Both the position numbers and the translations under genes were made by a program. From the NCBI GenBank assembly GCA_016928025.1, contig JAFGLN010000014.1, positions 65,391 through 129,390 of the forward strand: DNA of 64,000 nucleotides. Reading direction: 5' to 3'. Origin of the DNA: Deltaproteobacteria bacterium. Lineage in GTDB: Bacteria > Desulfobacterota > Syntrophia > Syntrophales > JAFGHS01. Positions 5,977-50,273 of the stretch are shown in pieces (position 1 is the first letter of the stretch; every line of letters starts with the position of its first letter). The notes beneath the pieces were generated by a model, which saw only the letters and a program-made list of their open reading frames with translations, did not search any database and was not told the DNA's origin.

Positions 5977-7377
5977 TTACGGAAGATCTACTTCTACAGG
6001 CGTCCAACTGCCATCAAAAGTCCCATCGCCCAATTGACCATACTCGTTATAGCCCCATGCCTGGGCCGTTATGTCACTCTTGAGGGAAAGCGTATCGTTA
6101 TAGCCGGCCGCAATGCCGATCATTCCCGATAATCCGCTGACCTGAAGCGGCAGGGTGCTGCCGGTCGTCGTTCCATCGCCCAGTTGGCCTTGACTGTTTC
6201 CCCCCCATGCCCAGACCGTTCCGTCATCTTTTAGGACCACCGTATGGTCATTGCCCGCCGCTATCACGGCTATATCCGATAAATTCGGTTTAACGCTGGA
6301 AGAACTGTTCGTCGTCGTACCGTTGCCAAGCTGACCGGAGCTGTTTCCCCCCCACGTCCGAATCGTGCCGTCGCGCAGCGATACAATGGTGTGCTCGTAA
6401 CCGGCGGCAATGGCTGTTACCGTGGAGATGTTCAGGCATGAAGGTATAATGTAGTTCGTTGTTGTTCCATTACCCAGTTGGCCGACACTGTTATTTCCCC
6501 ACAGGCAGACCGTGTTACTGCTCATCAACGCGATGGAGTGCCCGCTGCCCGCGGCTATGGCTATGGCCGCTTCTGTTGACAGAGCGGTGATCTGCACGGG
6601 AACCGTGCTGTCCGTTGTTGTGCCAATACCGAGCTGACCGCTGCTGTTGTTGCCCCACGCCCAAACCGTGCCGTCCTCGAGCAGCGCAAGAGAATGTGCA
6701 TTTCCTGCGGCGATGGCGATTACGCCCGACAGGGTGGTGATTGGTACGGGAATCGTGCTGTCCGTTGTTGTGCCAATACCGAGCTGGCCGCTGCCGTTAT
6801 TGCCCCACGCCCAAACCGTGCCGTCCTCGAGCAGCGCGAGGGAATGTTCATCACCCACCGCTACCGCCGCTACATTTGATAGGCTATTGATCTGCAAAGG
6901 AGCTGCGCTTAACGTTGTCGTCCCATCGCCGAGCTGACCATGATTATTTCTGCCCCAGGCCCAGACCGTGCCGTCGGTTTTCCGGTAAAGGGTATGTGTC
7001 GCTGTGACCAGACTATCCTGAATAAAAGCGCTGAAGTTAAAATCGGCGGCATCAATACCATTCAAGTAAACGGGGCGGTTGGCAGGGCTGAAACTGTAAC
7101 CGGCATACGTCGGCGTCAAGGTATAGGTCCCGATCTCAACATCCTGAAAACTATAGTTGCCGTTAATATCTGTCGTTGTCACCCTTGTAGATGGACCGGT
7201 CAGCGTAACCGTCACGTCGGTCAGCGGCACGCCGCCCAAGGTCGCTTTGCCGGAGATCGAATAGGTGACGTCGCTGTCGCTGCATCCAAAACATATCACA
7301 ATGATCAGCATGCTGATGCAAAACAATCCAATCATTCCGCTGGACTCGGATTTCTTAACCTGTCCCAATTTTGTCAT
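5977..7377 (-). CDS. RCC1/BLIP-II repeat lipoprotein with an N-terminal carboxypeptidase-regulatory-like domain
   Basis: There is a signal peptide and lipobox-like 'LIIVICFGCSD'. A CarboxypepD_reg-like segment follows ('TTDINGNYSFQDVEIGTYTLTP'). About 7 repeats of 'DGTVWAWGNNxxGQLGxGTTT' complete the protein. GAGGGG precedes the ATG at 7377. Confidence 0.85.
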   Translation of the reverse strand: MTKLGQVKKSESSGMIGLFCISMLIIVICFGCSDSDVTYSISGKATLGGVPLTDVTVTLTGPSTRVTTTDINGNYSFQDVEIGTYTLTPTYAGYSFSPANRPVYLNGIDAADFNFSAFIQDSLVTATHTLYRKTDGTVWAWGRNNHGQLGDGTTTLSAAPLQINSLSNVAAVAVGDEHSLALLEDGTVWAWGNNGSGQLGIGTTTDSTIPVPITTLSGVIAIAAGNAHSLALLEDGTVWAWGNNSSGQLGIGTTTDSTVPVQITALSTEAAIAIAAGSGHSIALMSSNTVCLWGNNSVGQLGNGTTTNYIIPSCLNISTVTAIAAGYEHTIVSLRDGTIRTWGGNSSGQLGNGTTTNSSSSVKPNLSDIAVIAAGNDHTVVLKDDGTVWAWGGNSQGQLGDGTTTGSTLPLQVSGLSGMIGIAAGYNDTLSLKSDITAQAWGYNEYGQLGDGTFDGSWTPVEVDLP

Positions 7378-11203: not shown

Positions 11204-12274
11204 TCACTGTTCACGGATGATATGCCTCGTATATAATTTGCCTTCCCGGACAAATTCGGGAACAACCCGGACAATCGTATTGGCCGCCGGTACCCGGCTG
11301 CGTTCTATCATAACCGGGATGTAATTGCTGGAAAATCCTTTATTCCAGTCTTGATCATTTTTCTTTTCGCCCTCCACGAGAACGGACAATTCTTTCCCGA
11401 TAAAGAGTTGCGCAAACGCTTGCCGCTTTTTCTTTCCGATCGTTCTTAAAATTTCCGCCCGCCTTTTCTTATCCCGGTCTTCGACTTTACCGGGCAGATC
11501 AACCGCCCGGGTCCCCGGCCGTTCGGAATAGGGAAAGACATGTAGATAGGAAACAGGCAGCTCCTCAATCAGCTGGCGCGTATTTTCAAAGGCCACTTCA
11601 TCCTCCCCCGGAAACCCCACCATAACGTCCATGCCGATCCCAATATCGGGAGCAGTCTTGTGAAGTTTATATAGTAGGCTTTTTACAAAGGGGGCATCAT
11701 AGTTTCGTCTCATGAGGGCCAGTATCCGGCTGTCTCCGCTTTGCAGGGGAATATGAAGATGCCGGCAGAGCGTTTTCGATTCCGCCATGAAGGTGATCAA
11801 ATCGTCCGATATTTCTGTTACCTCGATCGAACTGAGCCGCAGCCGCTCGACGTTTTTTTGCCGTTCAACCGCTTCCAGGACACGGAGAAGATTCGTCTGC
11901 GGCGTCAAATCGTGGCCGTAATTTCCCAGGTGGATTCCGGTCAGCACCACCTCGTGGTGTCCGGCCTGATTCAACTTTACGATATTTTTGATGACCTCCG
12001 CTTCAGGGAGGCTCCGGCTGGGACCTCTGGCATAGGGTATGATGCAGTAACTGCAAAACGAATCGCAGCCGTCCTGAATCTTCAGAAACGCCCGGGTATG
12101 GCCCGGGAAACGTGTCACAGACATCAGCGAGATCTCTTTTGCCTGCATGATGTCGCCGGCGAAGACGGACATCTCAATCCCCTCCTTTTCCAAAGAGGAA
12201 CAAGGCGTTTCTGCCCCTTTTTTTAAGGGGGGGAAAGATATTCCGCCCCTCTTTGTTAAAGGGAAACAGGGCAT
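11204..12274 (-). CDS. mtaB: MtaB-like tRNA methylthiotransferase, radical-SAM + TRAM fragment (C-terminal part of a split gene)
   Basis: The motifs 'RAFLKIQDGCDSFCSYCIIPYARG' (radical SAM cluster) and a C-terminal TRAM-like region are present. The first 34 codons are encoded by repeat DNA. A strong internal start exists at ATG 12172, with AAGGAGG at 12187-12181 and an 8-nt spacer. Confidence 0.85.
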   Translation of the reverse strand: MPCFPLTKRGGISFPPLKKGAETPCSSLEKEGIEMSVFAGDIMQAKEISLMSVTRFPGHTRAFLKIQDGCDSFCSYCIIPYARGPSRSLPEAEVIKNIVKLNQAGHHEVVLTGIHLGNYGHDLTPQTNLLRVLEAVERQKNVERLRLSSIEVTEISDDLITFMAESKTLCRHLHIPLQSGDSRILALMRRNYDAPFVKSLLYKLHKTAPDIGIGMDVMVGFPGEDEVAFENTRQLIEELPVSYLHVFPYSERPGTRAVDLPGKVEDRDKKRRAEILRTIGKKKRQAFAQLFIGKELSVLVEGEKKNDQDWNKGFSSNYIPVMIERSRVPAANTIVRVVPEFVREGKLYTRHIIREQ

Positions 12275-12345
12275 TTCTCCGCCCTCTTTTAAAGAGGGAG
12301 AAGCTACTTTACCCCCCTTTTTAAAGGGGGGTAAGGGGGGATTTT
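12176..12345. repeat. tandem array of 5 palindromic repeat units (core CCCYCTTT-n-AAAGRGGG, period about 31-35 bp), family A
   Basis: Unit cores lie near 12181, 12214, 12247, 12282 (perfect ccctcttt-t-aaagaggg) and 12312 (ccccccttt-tt-aaagggggg, followed by taaggggggatttt). The array sits between the two mtaB fragments. In translation it gives PPLKKGG-like peptides in several frames. Confidence 0.85.
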
Positions 12346-12726
12346 AAGATCTGCACAACCCCTTTCTTCTGCCAGCCTCTCAATCACATCCGGCAGCTTT
12401 TCCTTCTCCGTATTTCCCACGACAAGGGTGACGCCTGGAATAGCAGCTAAGGCATTCGGATCAATCTGGGCATAGCAACCGGTCGCAATGACAATAGCAC
12501 TGGGATTTGTCTTACTTGCCCTTCTGATCAGCTGACGGGATTGATAATTCGTTGCGGCCGTAACGGTACAGGTATTAACAATATAGCAATCCGCTTGTGT
12601 ATTGAACGGGACGACGGAAAATCCTCTGTGTTCCAGTTCTTCGGAGATCGCTGCCGACTCGTATTGATTGACTTTACAGCCCAGGGTGGAAAAGGCTACC
12701 CTGAAGGCCTCTGTTTTTTTCTGCAA
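12304..12726 (-). CDS. mtaB: MtaB-like tRNA methylthiotransferase, N-terminal MTTase (UPF0004) domain fragment
   Basis: The 140-aa fragment contains 'FSTLGCKVNQYESAAI...CYIVNTCTVTAAT...IVIATGCYAQ', with the three conserved Cys of the MTTase N-domain. It ends at a TAG inside the repeat array. The downstream fragment is in a different frame. Confidence 0.85.
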   Translation of the reverse strand: MQKKTEAFRVAFSTLGCKVNQYESAAISEELEHRGFSVVPFNTQADCYIVNTCTVTAATNYQSRQLIRRASKTNPSAIVIATGCYAQIDPNALAAIPGVTLVVGNTEKEKLPDVIERLAEERGCADLKIPPYPPLKRGVK

Positions 12727-12924
12727 TCTGTCCTCCGCCCGTCAGGCCCATGTCGAGGTAATATTTCATTGCCTGAATACGGGTCGTTATCAAATTTTCT
12801 TCCATATTTTTTTCGTATAGAATCTAAACGCCGGGGGCATATTTTGTCAAGATCAAAGGATTATTGGCATTTATCGGGAATGTAGGGTATGATAGCGCGT
12901 CACATTGAGGGAGGTGCAACCGCT

Positions 12925-13777: not shown

Positions 13778-14258
13778 TCAGATTTCTTTCAAAAGATTAT
13801 CCCAGTCCAGCGTTTTGAACGATCGGCTTAAAGGATGATCGTCCTCGAGCAGATGATATTCGAGATCCGTAAAAAGCTTTTCGGCAATATTTCTGACCGG
13901 CTCCCGTGGCACCACATCGTCATTAAGGCCGTGATAGAGGATCGCCGGTATGGCCCAGTTGATTTTTCAGATAAGGCCTAAAAGGCGTAAGATCCAGGGC
14001 CGGCGCCAACAAAATGAGTTTCTTAACTTTTTCCGGATGGTCGCACGCATAGATGGCGGCCATCAATCCGCCATAGCTGGAGCCGACGAGGATCAAATCG
14101 GTTTTATCGGCCAGAAGCCCGTTCAATCGCACCATTCGGTTTTCAAGGGGCCCCGTGTAATCCTCAACAATCATATCGGGATACTTGCTTCGGAAATAGA
14201 CCCCTTTCGTTCCCTGGCTGGAACTTTCCAGCCCATGGATGAATACCCTTGTCGTCAT
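13778..14258 (-). pseudogene. alpha/beta hydrolase (YqiA-like esterase), frameshifted at a homopolymer
   Basis: The upstream frame (14258-13923) carries the nucleophile elbow 'GSSYGG'. A second frame (13951-13778) encodes 'IPAILYHGLNDDVVP...LEDDHPL', which supplies the catalytic Asp and His. The frames join if the T5 run at 13963-13967 (A5 on the coding strand) is shortened by 1 nt. Confidence 0.75.
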
Positions 14259-32711: not shown

Positions 32712-32780
32712 AACATCCCCCTTTAGAAAAGGGGAAGCTATAATTCGATCCCCTCTTTATAAAGGGGGGTTGGGGGGATT
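32712..32780. repeat. family A palindromic repeat, 2 units, in the iorB-dctP intercistronic gap
   Basis: The two cores are ccccctttagaaaagggg (32717-32734) and cccctctttataaagggggg (32750-32769), followed by ttggggggatta. The terminal signature is the same as the mtaB array (aaaggggggtaaggggggatt). The repeat abuts the iorB stop at 32779-32781. Confidence 0.8.
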
Positions 32781-35723: not shown

Positions 35724-36302
35724 ATGTCACAAATTGAACAAAACCTGCGGTCAAAGCAGAATATTCCTGAAATCAGGTGCTATCGGTCTCCAAAAATTGA
35801 AATCCGCGCCAGCGGTCCAAAGGGTCGTGGGCTTTTCGCGACGGAGAAGATCAAACGGGGTGAGGTCGTCGCCATCAAGGCGGGGCATATTGTGACGGCG
35901 GATCGACTTCCTGAGATTACCACTGCCACCGGAGATTACGCCCTTCAGATCGATGATTATTTTTACCTGAGTCCGATCTCATCGGAAGAAGTTGAGAGAC
36001 TCACTATCTTCATCAACCATTCCTGCGACCCCAATGTCGGCTTCGACGGTCAAATCACCTATGTCGCCATGCGCGACATCGAACCGGAAGAGGAATTGTG
36101 CCACGACTACGCCATGATGCGTACCGACGGCTATTCCCTGGATTGCCTTTGCGGATCGGAACTCTGCCGGGGCAAAGTTACCGGCGAAGACTGGAAAGAT
36201 CCTCAGCTCCAGCAAAGATACGGCAACTATTTCTCTTCTTACATTTTGCGTAAGATCAGGCAGCTCAGGGAGACTGAAGGAAAACAGTTTTTATCGCAAT
36301 AG
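35724..36302 (+). CDS. SET-domain protein (putative lysine methyltransferase)
   Basis: The protein is 192 aa. 'GRGLFATEKIKRGEVV', 'FINHSCDPN' and 'ELCHDY' are the SET signature, and a post-SET-like Cys cluster 'CLCGSELCRG' follows. GAGG precedes the ATG. Confidence 0.85.
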   Translation: MSQIEQNLRSKQNIPEIRCYRSPKIEIRASGPKGRGLFATEKIKRGEVVAIKAGHIVTADRLPEITTATGDYALQIDDYFYLSPISSEEVERLTIFINHSCDPNVGFDGQITYVAMRDIEPEEELCHDYAMMRTDGYSLDCLCGSELCRGKVTGEDWKDPQLQQRYGNYFSSYILRKIRQLRETEGKQFLSQ

Positions 36303-40978: not shown

Positions 40979-41051
40979 CCTGTCATTCCCGCGCAGGCGG
41001 GAATCCAGATATTTTAGTTACTGGACCCCCGATCAGGTCGGAGATGACAGG
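40979..41051. repeat. family C repeat (CCTGTCATTCCCGCGCAGGCGGGAATCCAG ... ATGACAGG)
   Basis: The terminal inverted repeat is cctgtcat / atgacagg. The inner hairpin is ttcccgc-gcag-gcgggaa. It lies in the putative paaK 5' UTR. Confidence 0.75.
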
Positions 41052-46698: not shown

Positions 46699-46781
46699 GT
46701 GACGAGTAAAAGGTGGCAAGTATCGAGAAAAAGATTCGACACAATTAAATACTTGCCGCTCGTCACTTGTTGTCTGTCACT
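46699..46781. repeat. family B hairpin repeat, second copy
   Basis: The arms are gtgacgag...ggcaagtat / atacttgcc.ctcgtcac, the loop contains acaattaaatac, and the tail is ttgttgtctgtcact. It lies about 50 nt upstream of the carboxylase start. Confidence 0.7.
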
Positions 46782-46832
46782 AAATATAGGTTTCAGAACT
46801 ATATTTACATATTGAAGGAGAACACCAGGATC

Positions 46833-49800
46833 ATGAAGGAAATGCGTCTGTTGGTGGCTAATCGCGGTGAAATTGCCATTCGTATCCTGCGGGCGGCGGC
46901 GGAAATGAACATCCCCACGGTGGGCATCTACGCGGAAGACGATGCCCGGTCGCTCCATATCAAGAAAGCCGACGAAGCCAGCCCCTTGAACGGACAGGGG
47001 GCCGCCGCCTATCTGGATATGGAACAGATCATTGGAATCGCCAAAGCATCGGGCTGCAAGGCCGTACACCCGGGTTATGGATTTTTGAGCGAAAATGCCG
47101 CATTTGCAAAGCGCTGCGGGGAAGAAGGCATCACCTTTGTGGGGCCGAGACCTGAACTGCTCGAACTCTTCGGTCATAAACTCAATTCCAAAGCGGTGGC
47201 GCAGCAAAATAACATACCCGTTCTGCCCGGTACCTATGGTTCCTCAACAGTGAACATCGCTCAGGAATTCAGGTCTTTTCTACCCGAAGGCAGCGCTCTC
47301 ATGATCAAAGCCGTGGCGGGCGGCGGCGGCCGCTGCATCCGGGAAGTCTGGAATTTCGATGACATTGAAGAGGCCGTTAAACGCTGCCGTTATGAAGCCG
47401 AGCAGGCCTTCGGCAACGGCGATGTTTATATCGAACGGCTCATCCCCAGAGCCCGGCATATTGAAGTTCAGATTATCGGCGACGGCACCGGCGCCGTCAC
47501 GCACCTTTGGGAACGGGAATGCAGCATACAGCGGCGTCATCAGAAGCTGATCGAGTGCGCTCCCAGCCCCAACCTACCCGAAAGGCTGAGGGAGAATATT
47601 ATCGATGCCGCCTGCCGCATGGCGGCCGCCACCCGATACAACAATCTGGGCACTTTTGAATTTCTTGTGGATCTGGATAACCTGAACAATGACTTCGCCT
47701 TTGCCTTCATTGAGGTCAATCCCCGCCTGCAGGTTGAACATACGGTAACGGAAGAGGCAACGGGTTTGGATCTCGTCCAGATCCAACTCCAACTGGCCCA
47801 GGGCAGAACCCTTGCCGAACTGGGTTTACAGCAGGACAATATCGCAAAACCTCAGGGTTTTGCCATCCAGGTCCGGGTCAATATGGAAACGATGGACAAA
47901 GACGGCGTCCCCCAGCCGGCGGGCGGCATCCTCACAACCTTCGAACCGCCGTCCGGCGCGGGCATCCGGACCGACACGTTCGGCTATCGCGATTATCAAA
48001 CCAGCACCCGTTACGATTCGCTCTTGGCCAAGGTGATCTGCCGCACCAACTCAGGACGGTTCGTCGATGCCGTGAATAAGGTTTACCGGGCTTTGAGTGA
48101 ATTCCGGATCGAAGGCATCCCGACGAACATACCGTTTTTGCAGAATATTTTAGCTCACGACACCGTCAAGGCCGGTCATTTTTATACCCGGTTCATGGTA
48201 GATCATGCCGAGGAACTGCTCTTGGGAAATGACGGGACGCATCGCCGTCTTTACTTTGAAAATGAAATGGAGGCGCGGTTTGCCGGTGCCGCCGTCGATG
48301 AAACGGACCCCCTGGCGGTTCTCCATCACGGCAAGGCCGCCCGTCAGTTAACCGTCGACGATGTCGCCTCAACCTACGTGACGGACGAAACGGCGACGAA
48401 ATCACCGGACGGCCTTACCATTGTTCGTTCCAAAATTCAGGGAACCATCTGGAAGATCGAAAAACGGACCGGCGACGAAGTCCAGGCCGATCAGATCATT
48501 CTGATCATGGAAGCCATGAAAATGGAACATGAGGTCCCGGCGCCCTTCAGCGGCGTTATCCGTCGCATGAACGTGGCTGTCGGGGATTCCGTTTATGCCG
48601 GCCATCCCCTTGTCTATATCGAAGAGGCTAAGACCGATGCGGCAAGACAGGAGGACCTTAAAAAATACGATCTCGACAGGATCCGTCCGGACCTGCAAGA
48701 GGTTTTGGGGCGCCATGCCGCAACCCAGGACAGTTCAAGGGCTGAAGCTGTTGAGCGCCGCAGGGCGACGGGACAGCGCACGGCCAGAGAAAATCTTGAT
48801 GACCTCTGCGATCCCGGATCGTTTGTGGAATACGGTTCCCTAGTGCTGCCTCTGGGTGTACGACGCCCCCTGGATGAACTGATCGCGCGGTATCCCGGCG
48901 ACGGTCTTTATGTGGGGCTCGCTTCCGTCAATGGCAATTTGTTTGATGAGGCGGCTACCCGTTGCGCCGTCCTGTCCTACGACTATACGGTTCTGGCCGG
49001 CACCCAGGGCGGTCTGAACCACCGCAAGACCGACCGTATCCTGGAAGTGGCCGAACAACTGCGGGTTCCGGTCATCTTTTTCACCGAAGGCGGAGGCGGA
49101 CGGGCCGGCGGGGGCGGCGCCCCCACACCGCCGGCGACACCCGGCGGGCCGGTCCCGGGCGGCGGGACCGGGGGCCTTGACATTCCCTCCTGGCGGACCC
49201 TCTCCAAACTGAGCGGACTGGTTCCGGTTATCGGCGTCAATTCCGGCTACTGTTTTGCGGGAAACGCCCTGATGCTGGGTTGCTGCGATGTCATTATCGC
49301 GACAGCCAATTCCCGGATCGGCGTGGGCGGACCCGCTATGATCGAAGGAGGCGGCCTGGGGGTCTTTCATCCCGACGAGGTGGGCCCCATGTCCGTCCAG
49401 GTGCCCAATGGGATGGTCGATGTTCCCGTGAAAGACGAGGCGGAAGCGGTTCGGGTCGCTAAAAAATATCTCGCCTTCTTTCAGGGAAGCCTAAAGGATT
49501 GGGAATGCGCCGATCAGCGGCTGCTGAGACATATTATTCCGGAAAACCGCTTAAGGATATACGACTCCCGGGCCATCATTGAAATCATGGCCGATATGGG
49601 GTCGGTTCTGGAACTGAGAAAGCATTTCGGTCTGGGAATGATCACCGCCCTCATCCGCATTGAAGGGAAACCCATGGGATTAATTGCCAATAACCCGACG
49701 TATTTGTCCGGGGCCATCGATGCCAACGGTGCCGATAAAGCCGTCCGTTTTATGCAGCTCTGCGACGCCTTCGATCTGCCGATTGTCACGCTTTGCGACA

Positions 49801-50273
49801 CACCGGGCATTATGGTGGGACCGGAGATTGAAAAAACAGCCCTGGTACGGCATGCCTGCCGCATGTTTGTCACCGGCGCCAGCCTGACGATTCCCGTTGT
49901 GATGGTGATCTTACGAAAAGGTTACGGCCTGGGGGCTATGACCATGGGCGGCGGTCATTTCAAGGCACCCGTCGCCACGGTGGCCTGGCCAACGGGCGAG
50001 TTCGGGGGCATGGGCCTCGAAGGGCAGGTCAAACTGGGCTTCCGGAAACTACTCGCCGATATTAAAGATTCCGATGAGCGAAACAAAAAATACGCCGAAC
50101 TTGTCGAAATGGCCTACCAGCGCGGCAAGGCCATGAGCGCTGCCGTCTCTTTCGGCATCGACGATGCCATCGATCCGGCCGACACCCGCAAAGTCATCAG
50201 CGGCGTCCTGAAATCCTACCAGCCTCCCGGCCGCCGGGAGGGCAAAAAACGGCCTCTGGTGGATACGTGGTAG
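46833..50273 (+). CDS. single-chain biotin-dependent acyl-CoA carboxylase (BC-BCCP-CT fusion)
   Basis: The biotin carboxylase domain reads 'LLVANRGEIAIRILRAA...', the biotinyl motif is 'IMEAMKMEHEV', and a C-terminal carboxyltransferase domain follows ('SYDYTVLAGTQGG', 'PIVTLCDTPGIMVGPE'). GAAGGAGA precedes the ATG at 46833. The ORF is open from 46767. Confidence 0.9.
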   Translation: MKEMRLLVANRGEIAIRILRAAAEMNIPTVGIYAEDDARSLHIKKADEASPLNGQGAAAYLDMEQIIGIAKASGCKAVHPGYGFLSENAAFAKRCGEEGITFVGPRPELLELFGHKLNSKAVAQQNNIPVLPGTYGSSTVNIAQEFRSFLPEGSALMIKAVAGGGGRCIREVWNFDDIEEAVKRCRYEAEQAFGNGDVYIERLIPRARHIEVQIIGDGTGAVTHLWERECSIQRRHQKLIECAPSPNLPERLRENIIDAACRMAAATRYNNLGTFEFLVDLDNLNNDFAFAFIEVNPRLQVEHTVTEEATGLDLVQIQLQLAQGRTLAELGLQQDNIAKPQGFAIQVRVNMETMDKDGVPQPAGGILTTFEPPSGAGIRTDTFGYRDYQTSTRYDSLLAKVICRTNSGRFVDAVNKVYRALSEFRIEGIPTNIPFLQNILAHDTVKAGHFYTRFMVDHAEELLLGNDGTHRRLYFENEMEARFAGAAVDETDPLAVLHHGKAARQLTVDDVASTYVTDETATKSPDGLTIVRSKIQGTIWKIEKRTGDEVQADQIILIMEAMKMEHEVPAPFSGVIRRMNVAVGDSVYAGHPLVYIEEAKTDAARQEDLKKYDLDRIRPDLQEVLGRHAATQDSSRAEAVERRRATGQRTARENLDDLCDPGSFVEYGSLVLPLGVRRPLDELIARYPGDGLYVGLASVNGNLFDEAATRCAVLSYDYTVLAGTQGGLNHRKTDRILEVAEQLRVPVIFFTEGGGGRAGGGGAPTPPATPGGPVPGGGTGGLDIPSWRTLSKLSGLVPVIGVNSGYCFAGNALMLGCCDVIIATANSRIGVGGPAMIEGGGLGVFHPDEVGPMSVQVPNGMVDVPVKDEAEAVRVAKKYLAFFQGSLKDWECADQRLLRHIIPENRLRIYDSRAIIEIMADMGSVLELRKHFGLGMITALIRIEGKPMGLIANNPTYLSGAIDANGADKAVRFMQLCDAFDLPIVTLCDTPGIMVGPEIEKTALVRHACRMFVTGASLTIPVVMVILRKGYGLGAMTMGGGHFKAPVATVAWPTGEFGGMGLEGQVKLGFRKLLADIKDSDERNKKYAELVEMAYQRGKAMSAAVSFGIDDAIDPADTRKVISGVLKSYQPPGRREGKKRPLVDTW

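What the first reader, a model, noticed from the sequence alone, without database searches (positions are those of the whole stretch)
12172..12345. mtaB is split in its inter-domain linker by a tandem array of palindromic repeats, with homopolymers, a slippery heptamer and a restart Shine-Dalgarno sequence
Seen in the sequence: the MTTase N-domain ORF (12726-12304) and the radical-SAM/TRAM ORF (12274-11204) are in different frames. They are separated by five units of about 33 bp, each with a CCCYCTTT..AAAGRGGG palindrome. The two frames overlap in an open stretch containing C6, C6, A5 and G6 runs (12312-12340). A single-nt gain would fuse them into one protein with an insertion of about 60 aa (…IPPYPPLKKGGKVASPSLKEGGEMPCFPLTKRGG…). 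In the upstream frame, the sequence U_UUA_AAA (12325-12319) is a canonical X_XXY_YYZ -1 slippery heptamer, and a -1 shift there enters the downstream frame exactly. Independently, the most 3' repeat unit provides a perfect AAGGAGG (12187-12181) 8 nt before ATG 12172 (MSVFAGDIMQ…). That start would express the catalytic part as a separate polypeptide. Inference: there are four possible outcomes. These are a pseudogene or sequencing indel in a homopolymer, slipped-strand phase variation, programmed -1 frameshifting, or a genuinely two-piece MtaB created by the repeat insertion. Repeat invasion of a conserved tRNA-modification gene at a domain boundary is unusual in any of these cases.
Basis: partly seen in the sequence, partly recalled or inferred. 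Interest (0 to 1): 0.65.

Follow-up and report, generated by a model that had tools for sequence, protein, structure and literature searches.

The report
Palindromic repeat insert splits mtaB
A tRNA-modification gene (mtaB) of an uncultured Syntrophales-like bacterium carries a tandem array of a small, widespread palindromic "selfish" DNA element in the loop between two protein domains. Relatives read a comparable insert in frame, but here it is one base short, so the gene is split and probably recently disabled.

Summary
mtaB on the minus strand is broken into a UPF0004 ORF (12726-12304) and a radical-SAM/TRAM ORF (12274-11204) in the -1 frame. Between them lie five ~33-bp palindromic units.

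The repeats are not gene-specific. They belong to a widespread nested palindrome, AAATCCCCCC-n3-CCCCCCTTTAGAAAAGGGGGG-nAA-GGGGGGATTT. It also occurs intergenically in this window (32716-32769) and in at least 120 metagenome contigs. There it sometimes sits in frame inside real genes (MnmE, CysRS, RtcA), reading NPPxPP[FL]xKGGxGGF.

The closest relatives (62% and 59% identical) carry the same element at the same linker site in a single frame. Other Syntrophales carry different REP/MITE-like inserts nearby, while 97 of 106 relatives keep a fixed 62-aa spacing. An AlphaFold model of the intact relative shows the insert as a disordered loop.

The window copy is 188 nt where 189 would be in frame. 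The missing base maps to the A5/G6 tract of the first unit.

The slippery heptamer and the SD-ATG are by-products of the element's sequence and are absent in relatives. So programmed frameshifting and phase variation are not supported.

The frameshift recurs in two assemblies of apparently the same Illumina data, and a neighbouring gene is also frameshifted. Most likely this is a recent real mutation. An intact gene (sequencing error) or a two-piece enzyme cannot be excluded.

The parts
12304..12726 (-). mtaB 5' part: UPF0004/MTTase N-terminal domain ORF (140 aa). It ends at TAG 12306-12304, 13 codons into the repeat array.
   Evidence: ORF. NCBIfam TIGR01579 (MtaB) profile positions 1-108, 131.5 bits. 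Cys17/53/84 are present, matching the invariant Cys columns of alignment A3.
11204..12274 (-). mtaB 3' part: radical-SAM + TRAM ORF. It is open in the -1 frame from 12343. The longest ATG-started ORF begins at 12274 (356 aa). The NCBI record starts it at ATG 12172 (322 aa).
   Evidence: TIGR01579 positions 122-414, 310.1 bits. CDSFCSYC motif. P0001 is the 322-aa NCBI protein, 100% identical.
12171..12350 (-). Inserted palindromic-element array. The outer inverted arms are ATCTTAAAATCCCCCC (12350-12335) and AGGAGGGGATTGAGAT (12186-12171). They enclose five inner palindromic cores. The insert is 188 nt of extra sequence relative to the canonical linker; 189 nt would be in frame.
   Evidence: The outer arms pair in the minimum-free-energy fold. 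The fused linker would be 125 aa against 62 aa in 97 of 106 relatives.
12309..12334 (-). Unit A: TTACCCCCCTTT-AA-AAAGGGGGGTAA, a perfect 12-bp-arm palindrome. Together with the preceding AAAATCCCCCC it matches the left half and core of the canonical element.
   Evidence: I7. Consensus of 126 metagenome copies.
12277..12303 (-). Unit B palindrome (CTTCTCCCTCTTT A AAAGAGGGCGGAG).
   Evidence: (I9).
12246..12263 (-). Unit C palindrome (CCCTTTAACAAAGAGGGG, imperfect).
   Evidence: I4, I8.
12215..12232 (-). Unit D palindrome (CCCCCCTTAAAAAAAGGG).
   Evidence: I4, I11.
12184..12198 (-). Unit E palindrome (CCTCTTTGGAAAAGG, degenerate). Its 3' arm supplies AAGGAGG.
   Evidence: I3, I6.
12304..12343 (-). 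Zone where both frames are open; the indel must lie here. The most likely site is the loop/A5-G6 tract at 12322-12312.
   Evidence: Units B-E have an exact 33-nt (11-codon) period in the downstream frame, but Leu(A) to Leu(B) is 32 nt (read). The orthologous first unit in L040 and the family consensus have TTTAGAAAAGG where the window has TTTAAAAAGG.
12319..12325 (-). T_TTA_AAA heptamer in the upstream frame. It is the loop of palindrome A.
   Evidence: Read. Absent at the homologous place in L040 (CCT TTA GAA AAG) and L042 (CCT TCA AAA CAG).
12170..12187 (-). AAGGAGG (12187-12181), an 8-nt spacer, then ATG (12172-12170). This lies in the right terminal arm of the element.
   Evidence: Read. 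It is predicted to pair with 12350-12335 in the mRNA.
32716..32769 (.). Two further units of the same palindrome family, 34 nt apart. They are intergenic, lying between the POR gamma-subunit stop codon (32779) and the dctP start (32649).
   Evidence: Gene identities.

Best explanation
The five repeats are an internally amplified copy of a small, widespread, non-autonomous palindromic element. Its consensus is AAATCCCCCC-n3-CCCCCCTTTAGAAAAGGGGGG-nAA-GGGGGGATTT.

The element landed in the surface-exposed linker between the UPF0004 and radical-SAM domains of MtaB. Its C- and G-runs read as Pro-Pro and Gly-Gly, and two of its three frames are open on each strand. It can therefore be carried in frame as a disordered loop (PPxPP[LF]xKGG...). 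That is how the closest relatives carry it, and presumably how an ancestor of this lineage did.

In this genome the array later lost one base, most likely in the loop/A5-G6 tract of the first unit. That leaves 188 nt where 189 would be in frame. The N-domain ORF now stops 13 codons into the array, and the catalytic part lies in the -1 frame.

The change is most likely a real and recent mutation that disables or cripples a dispensable tRNA-Lys modification enzyme. The slippery heptamer and the SD-ATG are side-products of the element's own sequence. They could allow a trickle of full-length or two-piece protein, but they are not evolved signals.

Shown: the element's identity, the in-frame orthologues, the location of the break, and the absence of conservation of the recoding signals. 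Inferred: the order of events, the exact base lost, and the loss of function.
For: - Gene identity and break. The two ORFs cover MtaB profile TIGR01579 positions 1-108 and 122-414. They score 131.5 + 310.1 bits against a cut-off of 357; the intact relative scores 442.8.
- In-frame orthologues. P0002 (498 aa, 62% identical, conserved gene order) has four units with a 30-nt period at the same place, starting with the same KIPP junction. P0003 (529 aa) has one unit plus another REP.
- Linker hot spot. 97 of 106 relatives have exactly 62 aa between GCYA and RAFLK. The exceptions carry other repeat-derived inserts. One of these has a 91%-identical copy 2.7 kb away. Another shares a 29-bp palindrome found at window 40981-41009.
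- Element family.
  - An intergenic doublet lies at 32716-32769.
  - At least 120 metagenome contigs carry the 17-mer core, often as doublets or arrays spaced 30-35 or ~60 nt.
  - The conserved outer arms are AATCCCCCC / GGGGGGATTT.
  - 19 of 130 copies lie in open frames of at least 180 codons. These include MnmE, CysRS (between the catalytic and DALR domains), RtcA and a CDF transporter.
- Structure. The AlphaFold2 model of P0002 has pLDDT below 50 and coil for residues 123-176 (the insert), and is confident elsewhere.
- Frameshift is probably real.
  - The window sequence is identical to an independent Logan assembly of run SRR13394437.
  - That run also holds P0002, whose NCBI record falls in the accession range of an Illumina HiSeq / MEGAHIT project.
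  - The units are too diverged to be collapsed by an assembler.
- Frameshift is recent. There are no other defects in either half, and no rate acceleration relative to sister lineages. The array is still open in the downstream frame for 57 codons.
- Loss is tolerable. Deleting B. subtilis mtaB gives no growth phenotype (PMC5389704).
- A second frameshift. An alpha/beta-hydrolase gene 1.7 kb away carries a +1 G, so frame-breaking changes are not unique to mtaB in this genome.
Against: - No reads were inspected, so a consensus error in a hairpin-forming, homopolymer-rich stretch cannot be ruled out.
- The two assemblies probably derive from the same reads.
- Two frameshifts within 2 kb, while about 50 other ORFs in the window look intact, could point to a local data problem rather than biology.
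- Both halves are perfectly preserved. A strong SD-ATG precedes the catalytic part, and a heptamer sits exactly where a -1 slip would restore the frame. These facts fit continued function as well as they fit a very recent lesion.
- The window lineage branches outside P0002/P0003/P0004, and P0004 lacks the insert. So 'ancestral insertion' needs either a precise loss or two independent insertions at one site.
Confidence: 0.55

Rival explanations
1. Sequencing or assembly indel. The real gene is continuous and encodes a ~507-aa MtaB with a 63-aa element-derived loop, like its relatives. One base was lost from the A5/G6 (or C6) tract in the consensus.
For: The break lies in a homopolymer-rich perfect hairpin. 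Restoring one base gives a product colinear with P0002 and with the canonical element reading PPYPPLEKGGK. Everything else in the gene is intact. A second frameshift lies 1.7 kb away while the rest of the window looks clean.
Against: Two assemblers with different k-mer strategies give identical sequence. The data appear to be Illumina HiSeq, where 5-6-nt homopolymer indels in a consensus are rare. The second frameshift is GG->GGG in non-repetitive sequence, which is not a typical artefact context.
Confidence: 0.17
2. Genuine two-piece MtaB. The 140-aa Fe-S N-domain and a 322-aa catalytic polypeptide are made separately and assemble non-covalently. The catalytic part would start at ATG 12172 behind AAGGAGG, possibly coupled to upstream translation that unmasks the SD.
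For: There is a perfect SD with 8-nt spacing. The SD/ATG is predicted to pair with 12350-12335 inside the upstream ORF, so upstream translation could expose it. The break lies in a disordered inter-domain loop. Both halves are intact with no rate acceleration. The NCBI annotation calls the 322-aa product.
Against: No relative among the best 120 hits shows a conserved split. The SD-ATG is inherent to the element's G-rich arm and recurs inside in-frame arrays. The array upstream of ATG 12172 is still open in that frame, which is unexpected if it had long been untranslated. No split methylthiotransferase precedent turned up in the one literature search made.
Confidence: 0.13
3. Recoding rescues the gene. 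Ribosomes slip -1 on U_UUA_AAA and make full-length MtaB. The A-site AAA codon is read by tRNA-Lys, MtaB's own substrate, so slippage could rise when the tRNA is under-modified and create feedback.
For: The heptamer is in the correct frame and position. MtaB modifies tRNA-Lys, and ms2 is needed for efficient AAA/AAG decoding (PMC5389704). 'Saviour' correction of indels by frameshifting is a recognised category (PMC5009743).
Against: Neither the heptamer nor the two-frame layout is conserved in orthologues with the same element. The heptamer is the palindrome's loop, so it is expected by construction. The nearest downstream hairpin starts 15 nt away, and the downstream fold is not better than shuffles (z = -1.48). 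U_UU.A_AA.A is not listed among the efficient E. coli motifs. Without a stimulator, efficiencies in that study ranged from 0.018% upward, and motif/no-motif ratios did not exceed 10.
Confidence: 0.06
4. Slipped-strand phase variation. The C6/A5/G6 tracts switch mtaB ON and OFF within the population.
For: Several homopolymers lie inside the zone where both frames are open.
Against: The tracts are only 5-6 nt. Two assemblies spanned the site without a break, so no length variant was detected. No in-frame allele of this species exists in the 5.8-billion-sequence protein collection.
Confidence: 0.03

Closest known systems
Rickettsia palindromic elements (RPEs; Ogata et al. 2000, as summarised in PMC10969869)
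   Same: A dispersed palindromic non-coding element found both between genes and in frame inside conserved housekeeping genes. It adds a peptide at a surface or linker position without destroying the protein.
   Different: It is much shorter (a ~45-bp nested palindrome versus ~100-150 bp) and unrelated in sequence. It occurs in free-living anaerobes (Syntrophales-like and many metagenome lineages) rather than Rickettsia. Here it is amplified into a 5-unit tandem array and is secondarily frameshifted.
REP / BIME / REPIN elements of Proteobacteria
   Same: Short (~20-40 bp) GC-rich imperfect palindromes that occur as singlets, doublets and clusters with regular spacing.
   Different: REPs are classically extragenic and are tied to a RAYT transposase. 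No RAYT-like gene was seen among the window ORFs that were scanned, and the rest of the genome could not be examined.
Bacterial MITEs that create in-frame fusions (ERIC, Correia, BOX and others; Delihas 2007, cited in PMC10969869)
   Same: Terminal inverted arms, hairpin-forming, frames open through the element, and occasional intragenic copies.
   Different: No target-site duplication or parent IS element was identified. The element is far smaller than typical MITEs.
[quoted passage not shown]
   Same: Tandem intragenic repeats whose DNA has dyad symmetry.
   Different: PARCELs encode a 25-residue amphipathic structured domain in proteins of unknown function. Here the unit is 10-11 residues, Pro/Gly-rich and predicted disordered, and it also occurs in non-coding DNA.
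Programmed -1 frameshift sites (dnaX, IS3/IS911)
   Same: An X_XXY_YYZ heptamer at an overlap of two frames.
   Different: There is no conserved stimulator and no conservation of the arrangement in orthologues. The heptamer is of the less efficient class.

Membership tests
MtaB (tRNA t6A37 methylthiotransferase, NCBIfam TIGR01579) | The full-length match to the equivalog HMM scores above the 357-bit cut-off. | tested here: inconclusive
   Each ORF alone is below the cut-off: 131.5 bits (positions 1-108) and 310.1 bits (positions 122-414). Together they cover the model and sum to 441.6 bits; orthologue P0002 scores 442.8. This is a disrupted mtaB rather than a different gene.
MtaB (tRNA t6A37 methylthiotransferase, NCBIfam TIGR01579) | Three N-domain Cys for the auxiliary [4Fe-4S] cluster, and a CxxxCxxC radical-SAM motif. 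| tested here: met
   Cys17/53/84 in the N ORF correspond to invariant columns of alignment A3. CDSFCSYC is present.
MtaB (tRNA t6A37 methylthiotransferase, NCBIfam TIGR01579) | A single polypeptide with N-domain, radical-SAM and TRAM domains. | tested here: not met
   There are two ORFs in different frames.
RPE-like / MITE-like in-frame palindromic elements | A hairpin-forming palindromic sequence with terminal inverted arms. | tested here: met
RPE-like / MITE-like in-frame palindromic elements | Multiple dispersed copies, including non-coding sites. | tested here: met
   An intergenic doublet lies at 32716-32769. At least 120 metagenome contigs carry the core. Only 64 kb of this genome could be examined.
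RPE-like / MITE-like in-frame palindromic elements | Copies inserted in frame in conserved protein-coding genes. | tested here: met
   MtaB of P0002 and P0003. MnmE, CysRS, RtcA and a CDF transporter in metagenome loci.
RPE-like / MITE-like in-frame palindromic elements | Target-site duplication and/or an identifiable mobilising transposase (RAYT or parent IS). | not tested
   No transposase family appeared among the Pfam hits of ~50 window ORFs, but this was not a dedicated search. The rest of the genome was unavailable.
Programmed -1 ribosomal frameshift site | An X_XXY_YYZ heptamer in the zero frame at the frame overlap. | tested here: met
   T_TTA_AAA at 12325-12319.
Programmed -1 ribosomal frameshift site | A stimulatory structure 5-9 nt downstream (or an upstream SD). 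| tested here: not met
   The next hairpin (unit B) starts 15 nt downstream. The fold of 12318-12240 has z = -1.48, and 23 of 200 shuffles fold as well.
Programmed -1 ribosomal frameshift site | Conservation of the heptamer and the two-frame architecture in orthologues. | tested here: not met
   L040 and L042 are single-frame and lack the heptamer. All other listed relatives with both domains are single ORFs.
Phase-variable homopolymer (contingency) locus | A long tract (typically at least 7-8 nt) with length heterogeneity between reads or strains. | tested here: not met
   The tracts are 5-6 nt. Two assemblies of apparently the same data are identical. Read-level heterogeneity cannot be tested with these tools.

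The most novel reading that the evidence does not exclude
The split is functional, not a lesion. Full-length MtaB would be produced only when ribosomes slip -1 on U_UUA_AAA. The A-site Lys codon there is decoded by tRNA-Lys(UUU), the very tRNA that MtaB methylthiolates, so under-modified tRNA would raise slippage and restore enzyme synthesis. This would be an accidental autoregulatory recoding loop created by a selfish palindromic element. Alternatively, the element's own SD-ATG arm could turn MtaB into a working two-subunit enzyme.
Probability: 0.08. Interest if true: 0.8.

Novelty: new member of a known kind. Interest (0 to 1): 0.4.

Why it matters
On its own the split mtaB is most likely an ordinary recent lesion in a dispensable gene.

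The wider pattern is more useful. A very small nested palindrome (~45 bp) behaves like the Rickettsia RPEs but in free-living anaerobes and many metagenome lineages. I found no name or description for it in Rfam or in the searchable literature. It sits in frame at domain boundaries of housekeeping enzymes: MtaB, CysRS, MnmE and RtcA.

The MtaB inter-domain linker has been hit by at least four different repeat families in Syntrophales, although its length is otherwise fixed. That gives a natural map of where a radical-SAM methylthiotransferase tolerates insertions. It also gives an annotation warning. Peptides such as PPxPPFxKGGxGGF in predicted proteins are repeat-derived, and such elements bring homopolymers, slippery heptamers and SD-ATG look-alikes that can be mistaken for recoding signals.

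Tried and rejected
- **Rfam.** The whole window at gathering thresholds gave no hit, so the hairpins are not a described RNA family.
- **Conspecific genomes.**
  - The genome-contig scan gave a best hit of only 60% identity.
  - The 5.8-billion-sequence protein collection holds no in-frame allele of this species.
  - Population variation could therefore not be assessed.
- **Tandem Repeats Finder.** It missed the array because the units are too diverged. The repeat finder recovered it.
- **Genome-wide gene decay.** Pfam scans of ~50 other ORFs showed full-length domain matches. Only the hydrolase next door is also broken. A suspected truncated carboxylesterase at the window end simply runs off the window.
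- **Second mtaB copy.** None exists in the window; there is only a weak hit to another radical-SAM gene.
- **Literature.** Searches for the element's peptide and DNA strings gave nothing relevant.
- **Terminator scan.** Terminator-like sites inside the array were not above the number seen in shuffles.
- **PARCEL membership.** Considered and rejected, because unit length, composition and predicted structure differ.
- **MAFFT alignment of the three linkers.** It did not place a gap at the indel. The position was inferred from codon periodicity and the family consensus instead.
Full report
**Observation**

- On the minus strand, an ORF of 140 aa (12726-12304) is followed by an ORF of 356 aa (12274-11204) in the -1 frame.
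- Both frames are open between 12343 and 12304. That stretch contains C6, C6, A5 and G6 runs.
- The repeat finder reports a direct-repeat family with spacings of 32, 34 and 33 nt (62-71% identity). It also reports a palindrome in each unit, the first with perfect 12-bp arms at 12309-12320 / 12323-12334.
- Pattern and hairpin scans are far above shuffle expectation.
- The 191-nt region folds at -81.2 kcal/mol, z = -5.35.
- T_TTA_AAA (12325-12319) is in the upstream frame. AAGGAGG (12187-12181) lies 8 nt before ATG 12172.

**The gene**

The two ORFs are the two parts of one MtaB.
- They match NCBIfam TIGR01579 at profile positions 1-108 (131.5 bits) and 122-414 (310.1 bits).
- The sum exceeds the 357-bit cut-off and equals the score of an intact relative, 442.8 bits.
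- The three N-domain cysteines and the CDSFCSYC radical-SAM motif are intact.
- The organism is an uncultured Syntrophales-like deltaproteobacterium. The best species-representative genomes reach only 60% identity.
- Gene order is conserved with relatives: hydrolase, NIL-ferredoxin, a 123-aa gene, mtaB, rnc, ilvD.

**What the repeats are**

They are not peculiar to mtaB.
- Two more units, 34 nt apart, lie in the intergenic space between a POR gamma-subunit gene and dctP, at 32716-32769.
Many carry doublets or arrays spaced 30-35 or ~60 nt.
- Aligning 126 copies shows conserved flanks that were not part of the query. The result is a nested palindrome: AAATCCCCCC-n3-CCCCCCTTTAGAAAAGGGGGG-nAA-GGGGGGATTT.
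- The mtaB array begins with exactly this left half (AAAATCCCCCC TTA CCCCCCTTT...). It ends with a degenerate right arm (GGAGGGGATTGAGAT), and the two ends pair in the predicted fold.
- The array therefore looks like one element whose inner core was amplified five-fold. Units B-E have an exact 33-nt, 11-codon period (read).
- Nineteen of 130 metagenome copies lie inside open frames of at least 180 codons and read NPPxPP[FL]xKGGxGGF.
- Pfam confirms that several of these are genuine genes: MnmE, cysteinyl-tRNA synthetase (between the catalytic and DALR domains), RNA 3'-phosphate cyclase, and a cation-efflux protein.
- Rfam has no family for the element. Full-text searches for its peptide or DNA strings found nothing relevant.

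**Relatives**

- The protein search returned the NCBI-annotated 322-aa C-terminal product of this very locus (P0001). It returned no in-frame allele of this species.
- The next-best hits are intact MtaBs that are unusually long.
- P0002 (498 aa, 62% identical) occurs in the same sequencing run and in a Zodletone-spring MAG. At the same linker position it reads ...KIPPRHPLEKGEMEFSPLEKKEMDGLPFERGGMGCPPFERGGW.... Its DNA shows four units of the same palindrome with a 30-nt period, all in frame.
- P0003 (529 aa) starts the same way (EIPPASPSKQGEM) and continues with a different palindrome, ATTCCCGCGCAGGCGGGAAT. An identical 29-bp copy of that palindrome sits at window 40981-41009.
- P0009/P0014 carry two CCCCGCC..GGCGGGG palindromes at the same place. 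P0037 carries a 192-bp insert with a 91%-identical copy 2.7 kb downstream in its contig.
- In 97 of 106 relatives the distance between the GCYA and RAFLK motifs is exactly 62 aa.
- The linker is thus normally fixed in length but has repeatedly accepted repeat-element insertions in this order.
- An AlphaFold2 model of P0002 (mean pLDDT 79.8) is confident in all three domains. It gives pLDDT 22-39 and no secondary structure for residues 123-176, which is the insert.

**The frame break**

- With one added base the window linker would be 125 aa, which is 63 aa or 189 nt more than the canonical linker. The genome holds 188 nt.
- Upstream, the window is colinear with L040 and L042 in the N-frame through CCT TTA. 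Downstream, units B-E are phased in the C-frame with a 33-nt period. The Leu codon of unit A is only 32 nt from that of unit B.
- The orthologous first unit, the intergenic copy and the family consensus all have TTTAGAAAAGG where the window has TTTAAAAAGG.
- The simplest reading is loss of one base in the loop/A5-G6 tract (12322-12312). This is an inference, and the MAFFT alignment itself did not place a gap there.
- If so, the same deletion created the T_TTA_AAA heptamer.

**Real or artefact?**

- The window is 100% identical over 6.4 kb to an independent Logan assembly of run SRR13394437.
- That run also contains P0002. The NCBI record of P0002 falls in the accession range of the Zodletone project, which used Illumina HiSeq 2500 reads and MEGAHIT.
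- The units are too divergent to be collapsed by an assembler.
- These points favour a real change, but the two assemblies probably share reads and I could not inspect them.
- The alpha/beta-hydrolase gene 1.7 kb away is also frameshifted. Orthologues align at 83% and 65-74% identity in two frames, with a GG->GGG insertion at about 13950 in non-repetitive sequence.
- About 50 other ORFs in the window have full-length domain matches.
- Two broken genes among about 55 is an ordinary pseudogene load. Their proximity could also hint at a local data problem.

- *Recency.* Relative-rate comparison shows that neither half of the window's MtaB has evolved faster than its sister lineages. The array remains open in the downstream frame. 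The lesion is therefore recent, or the gene is still useful.
- *Programmed -1 frameshifting.*
  - The heptamer and the two-frame layout are absent in the orthologues that carry the element.
  - The nearest downstream hairpin is 15 nt away, and the downstream fold is not significant.
  - U_UU.A_AA.A is not among the efficient bacterial motifs (PMC4066793).
- *SD-ATG restart.* The SD-ATG is the element's right arm. G-rich arm plus ATG recurs within in-frame arrays, so it is not evidence of selection. It could still drive a separate 322-aa product. Its predicted pairing with 12350-12335 would make that dependent on upstream translation.
- *Phase variation.* It lacks long tracts and any sign of heterogeneity.
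- *Pseudogene.* MtaB loss is tolerated in B. subtilis (PMC5389704), which makes a simple recent pseudogene the most economical reading.
- *Speculation not excluded.* The heptamer's A-site AAA is read by tRNA-Lys, MtaB's own substrate. A slippage-based feedback loop is therefore conceivable.

**Comparison with what is known**

- Functionally this is the phenomenon described for Rickettsia palindromic elements and for intragenic MITEs: a selfish palindrome carried in frame within conserved genes (PMC10969869).
- It also shares the short-palindrome, doublet and cluster organisation of REP/BIME elements.
- It differs in sequence, in size (~45 bp), in host range, and here in tandem amplification and a secondary frameshift.
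- It is not a PARCEL.
- I file it as a new member of a known kind. The element family itself appears unnamed in the sources I could search.

Noticed in passing
window 13785-14258 (minus strand): The alpha/beta-hydrolase gene next to the NIL-ferredoxin gene is frameshifted. Orthologues of 158-161 aa align residues 2-100 in one frame and 101-157 in another. The cause is a one-base insertion (GG->GGG) in CAACTGGGCCATACC at about 13950-13957. The site is not in a repeat or a long homopolymer. The same sequence appears in the Logan contig.
   Followed up: yes
window 40981-41009: An intergenic REP-like palindrome (TTGTCATTCCCGCGCAGGCGGGAATCCAG). It is 100% identical to part of the in-frame MtaB linker insert of relative P0003 (L042 4957-4985, reading VIPAQAGIQ) and 93% identical to a site in L003. 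This is a second dispersed palindrome family shared across these lineages.
   Followed up: partly
L043 10385-10576 and 13285-13409: The 192-bp in-frame insert in the MtaB linker of P0037 has a 91%-identical 126-bp copy 2.7 kb downstream, at the end of another radical-SAM gene. This is a MITE-like dispersed repeat of a third family.
   Followed up: partly
L045 1855-1962: The 108-bp in-frame insert of P0009/P0014 MtaB contains two direct copies of a CCCCGCC(n5)GGCGGGG palindrome about 57 nt apart, forming a REP-doublet-like structure (a fourth family).
   Followed up: no
L111 ~686, L123 ~1238, L100 ~1432, L048 ~1653: The same palindromic element sits in frame inside cysteinyl-tRNA synthetase (between the catalytic and DALR domains), MnmE, RNA 3'-phosphate cyclase and a cation-efflux protein in unrelated metagenome contigs. 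RtcA also holds a second insert reading PPPSPPYQGGDGG.
   Followed up: partly
L152 1877-2534; L087 53-123: L152 is a metagenome contig with eight units of the palindrome family, spaced 29-34 nt within clusters (up to 78 nt between them) plus a further doublet. L087 has a perfectly regular 27-nt tandem version lying in an open frame that reads GVCPFSKGA three times.
   Followed up: no
window 46767-50273 (+): A single 1168-aa ORF fuses biotin carboxylase, a biotinyl carrier domain and a carboxyltransferase. This is an all-in-one acyl-CoA carboxylase architecture.
   Followed up: no
window 5977-7377 (-) and 35724-36302 (+): A 466-aa protein with six RCC1 repeats behind a CarboxypepD_reg-like domain, and a 192-aa SET-domain protein. 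I know both domain types mainly from eukaryotic proteins.
   Followed up: no
window 12821-12850 (minus strand): A sigma-70-like promoter match (TTGACA-18-TAGATT, 10 of 12) about 95 nt upstream of the mtaB start. The number of such matches in the region is not above chance.
   Followed up: no
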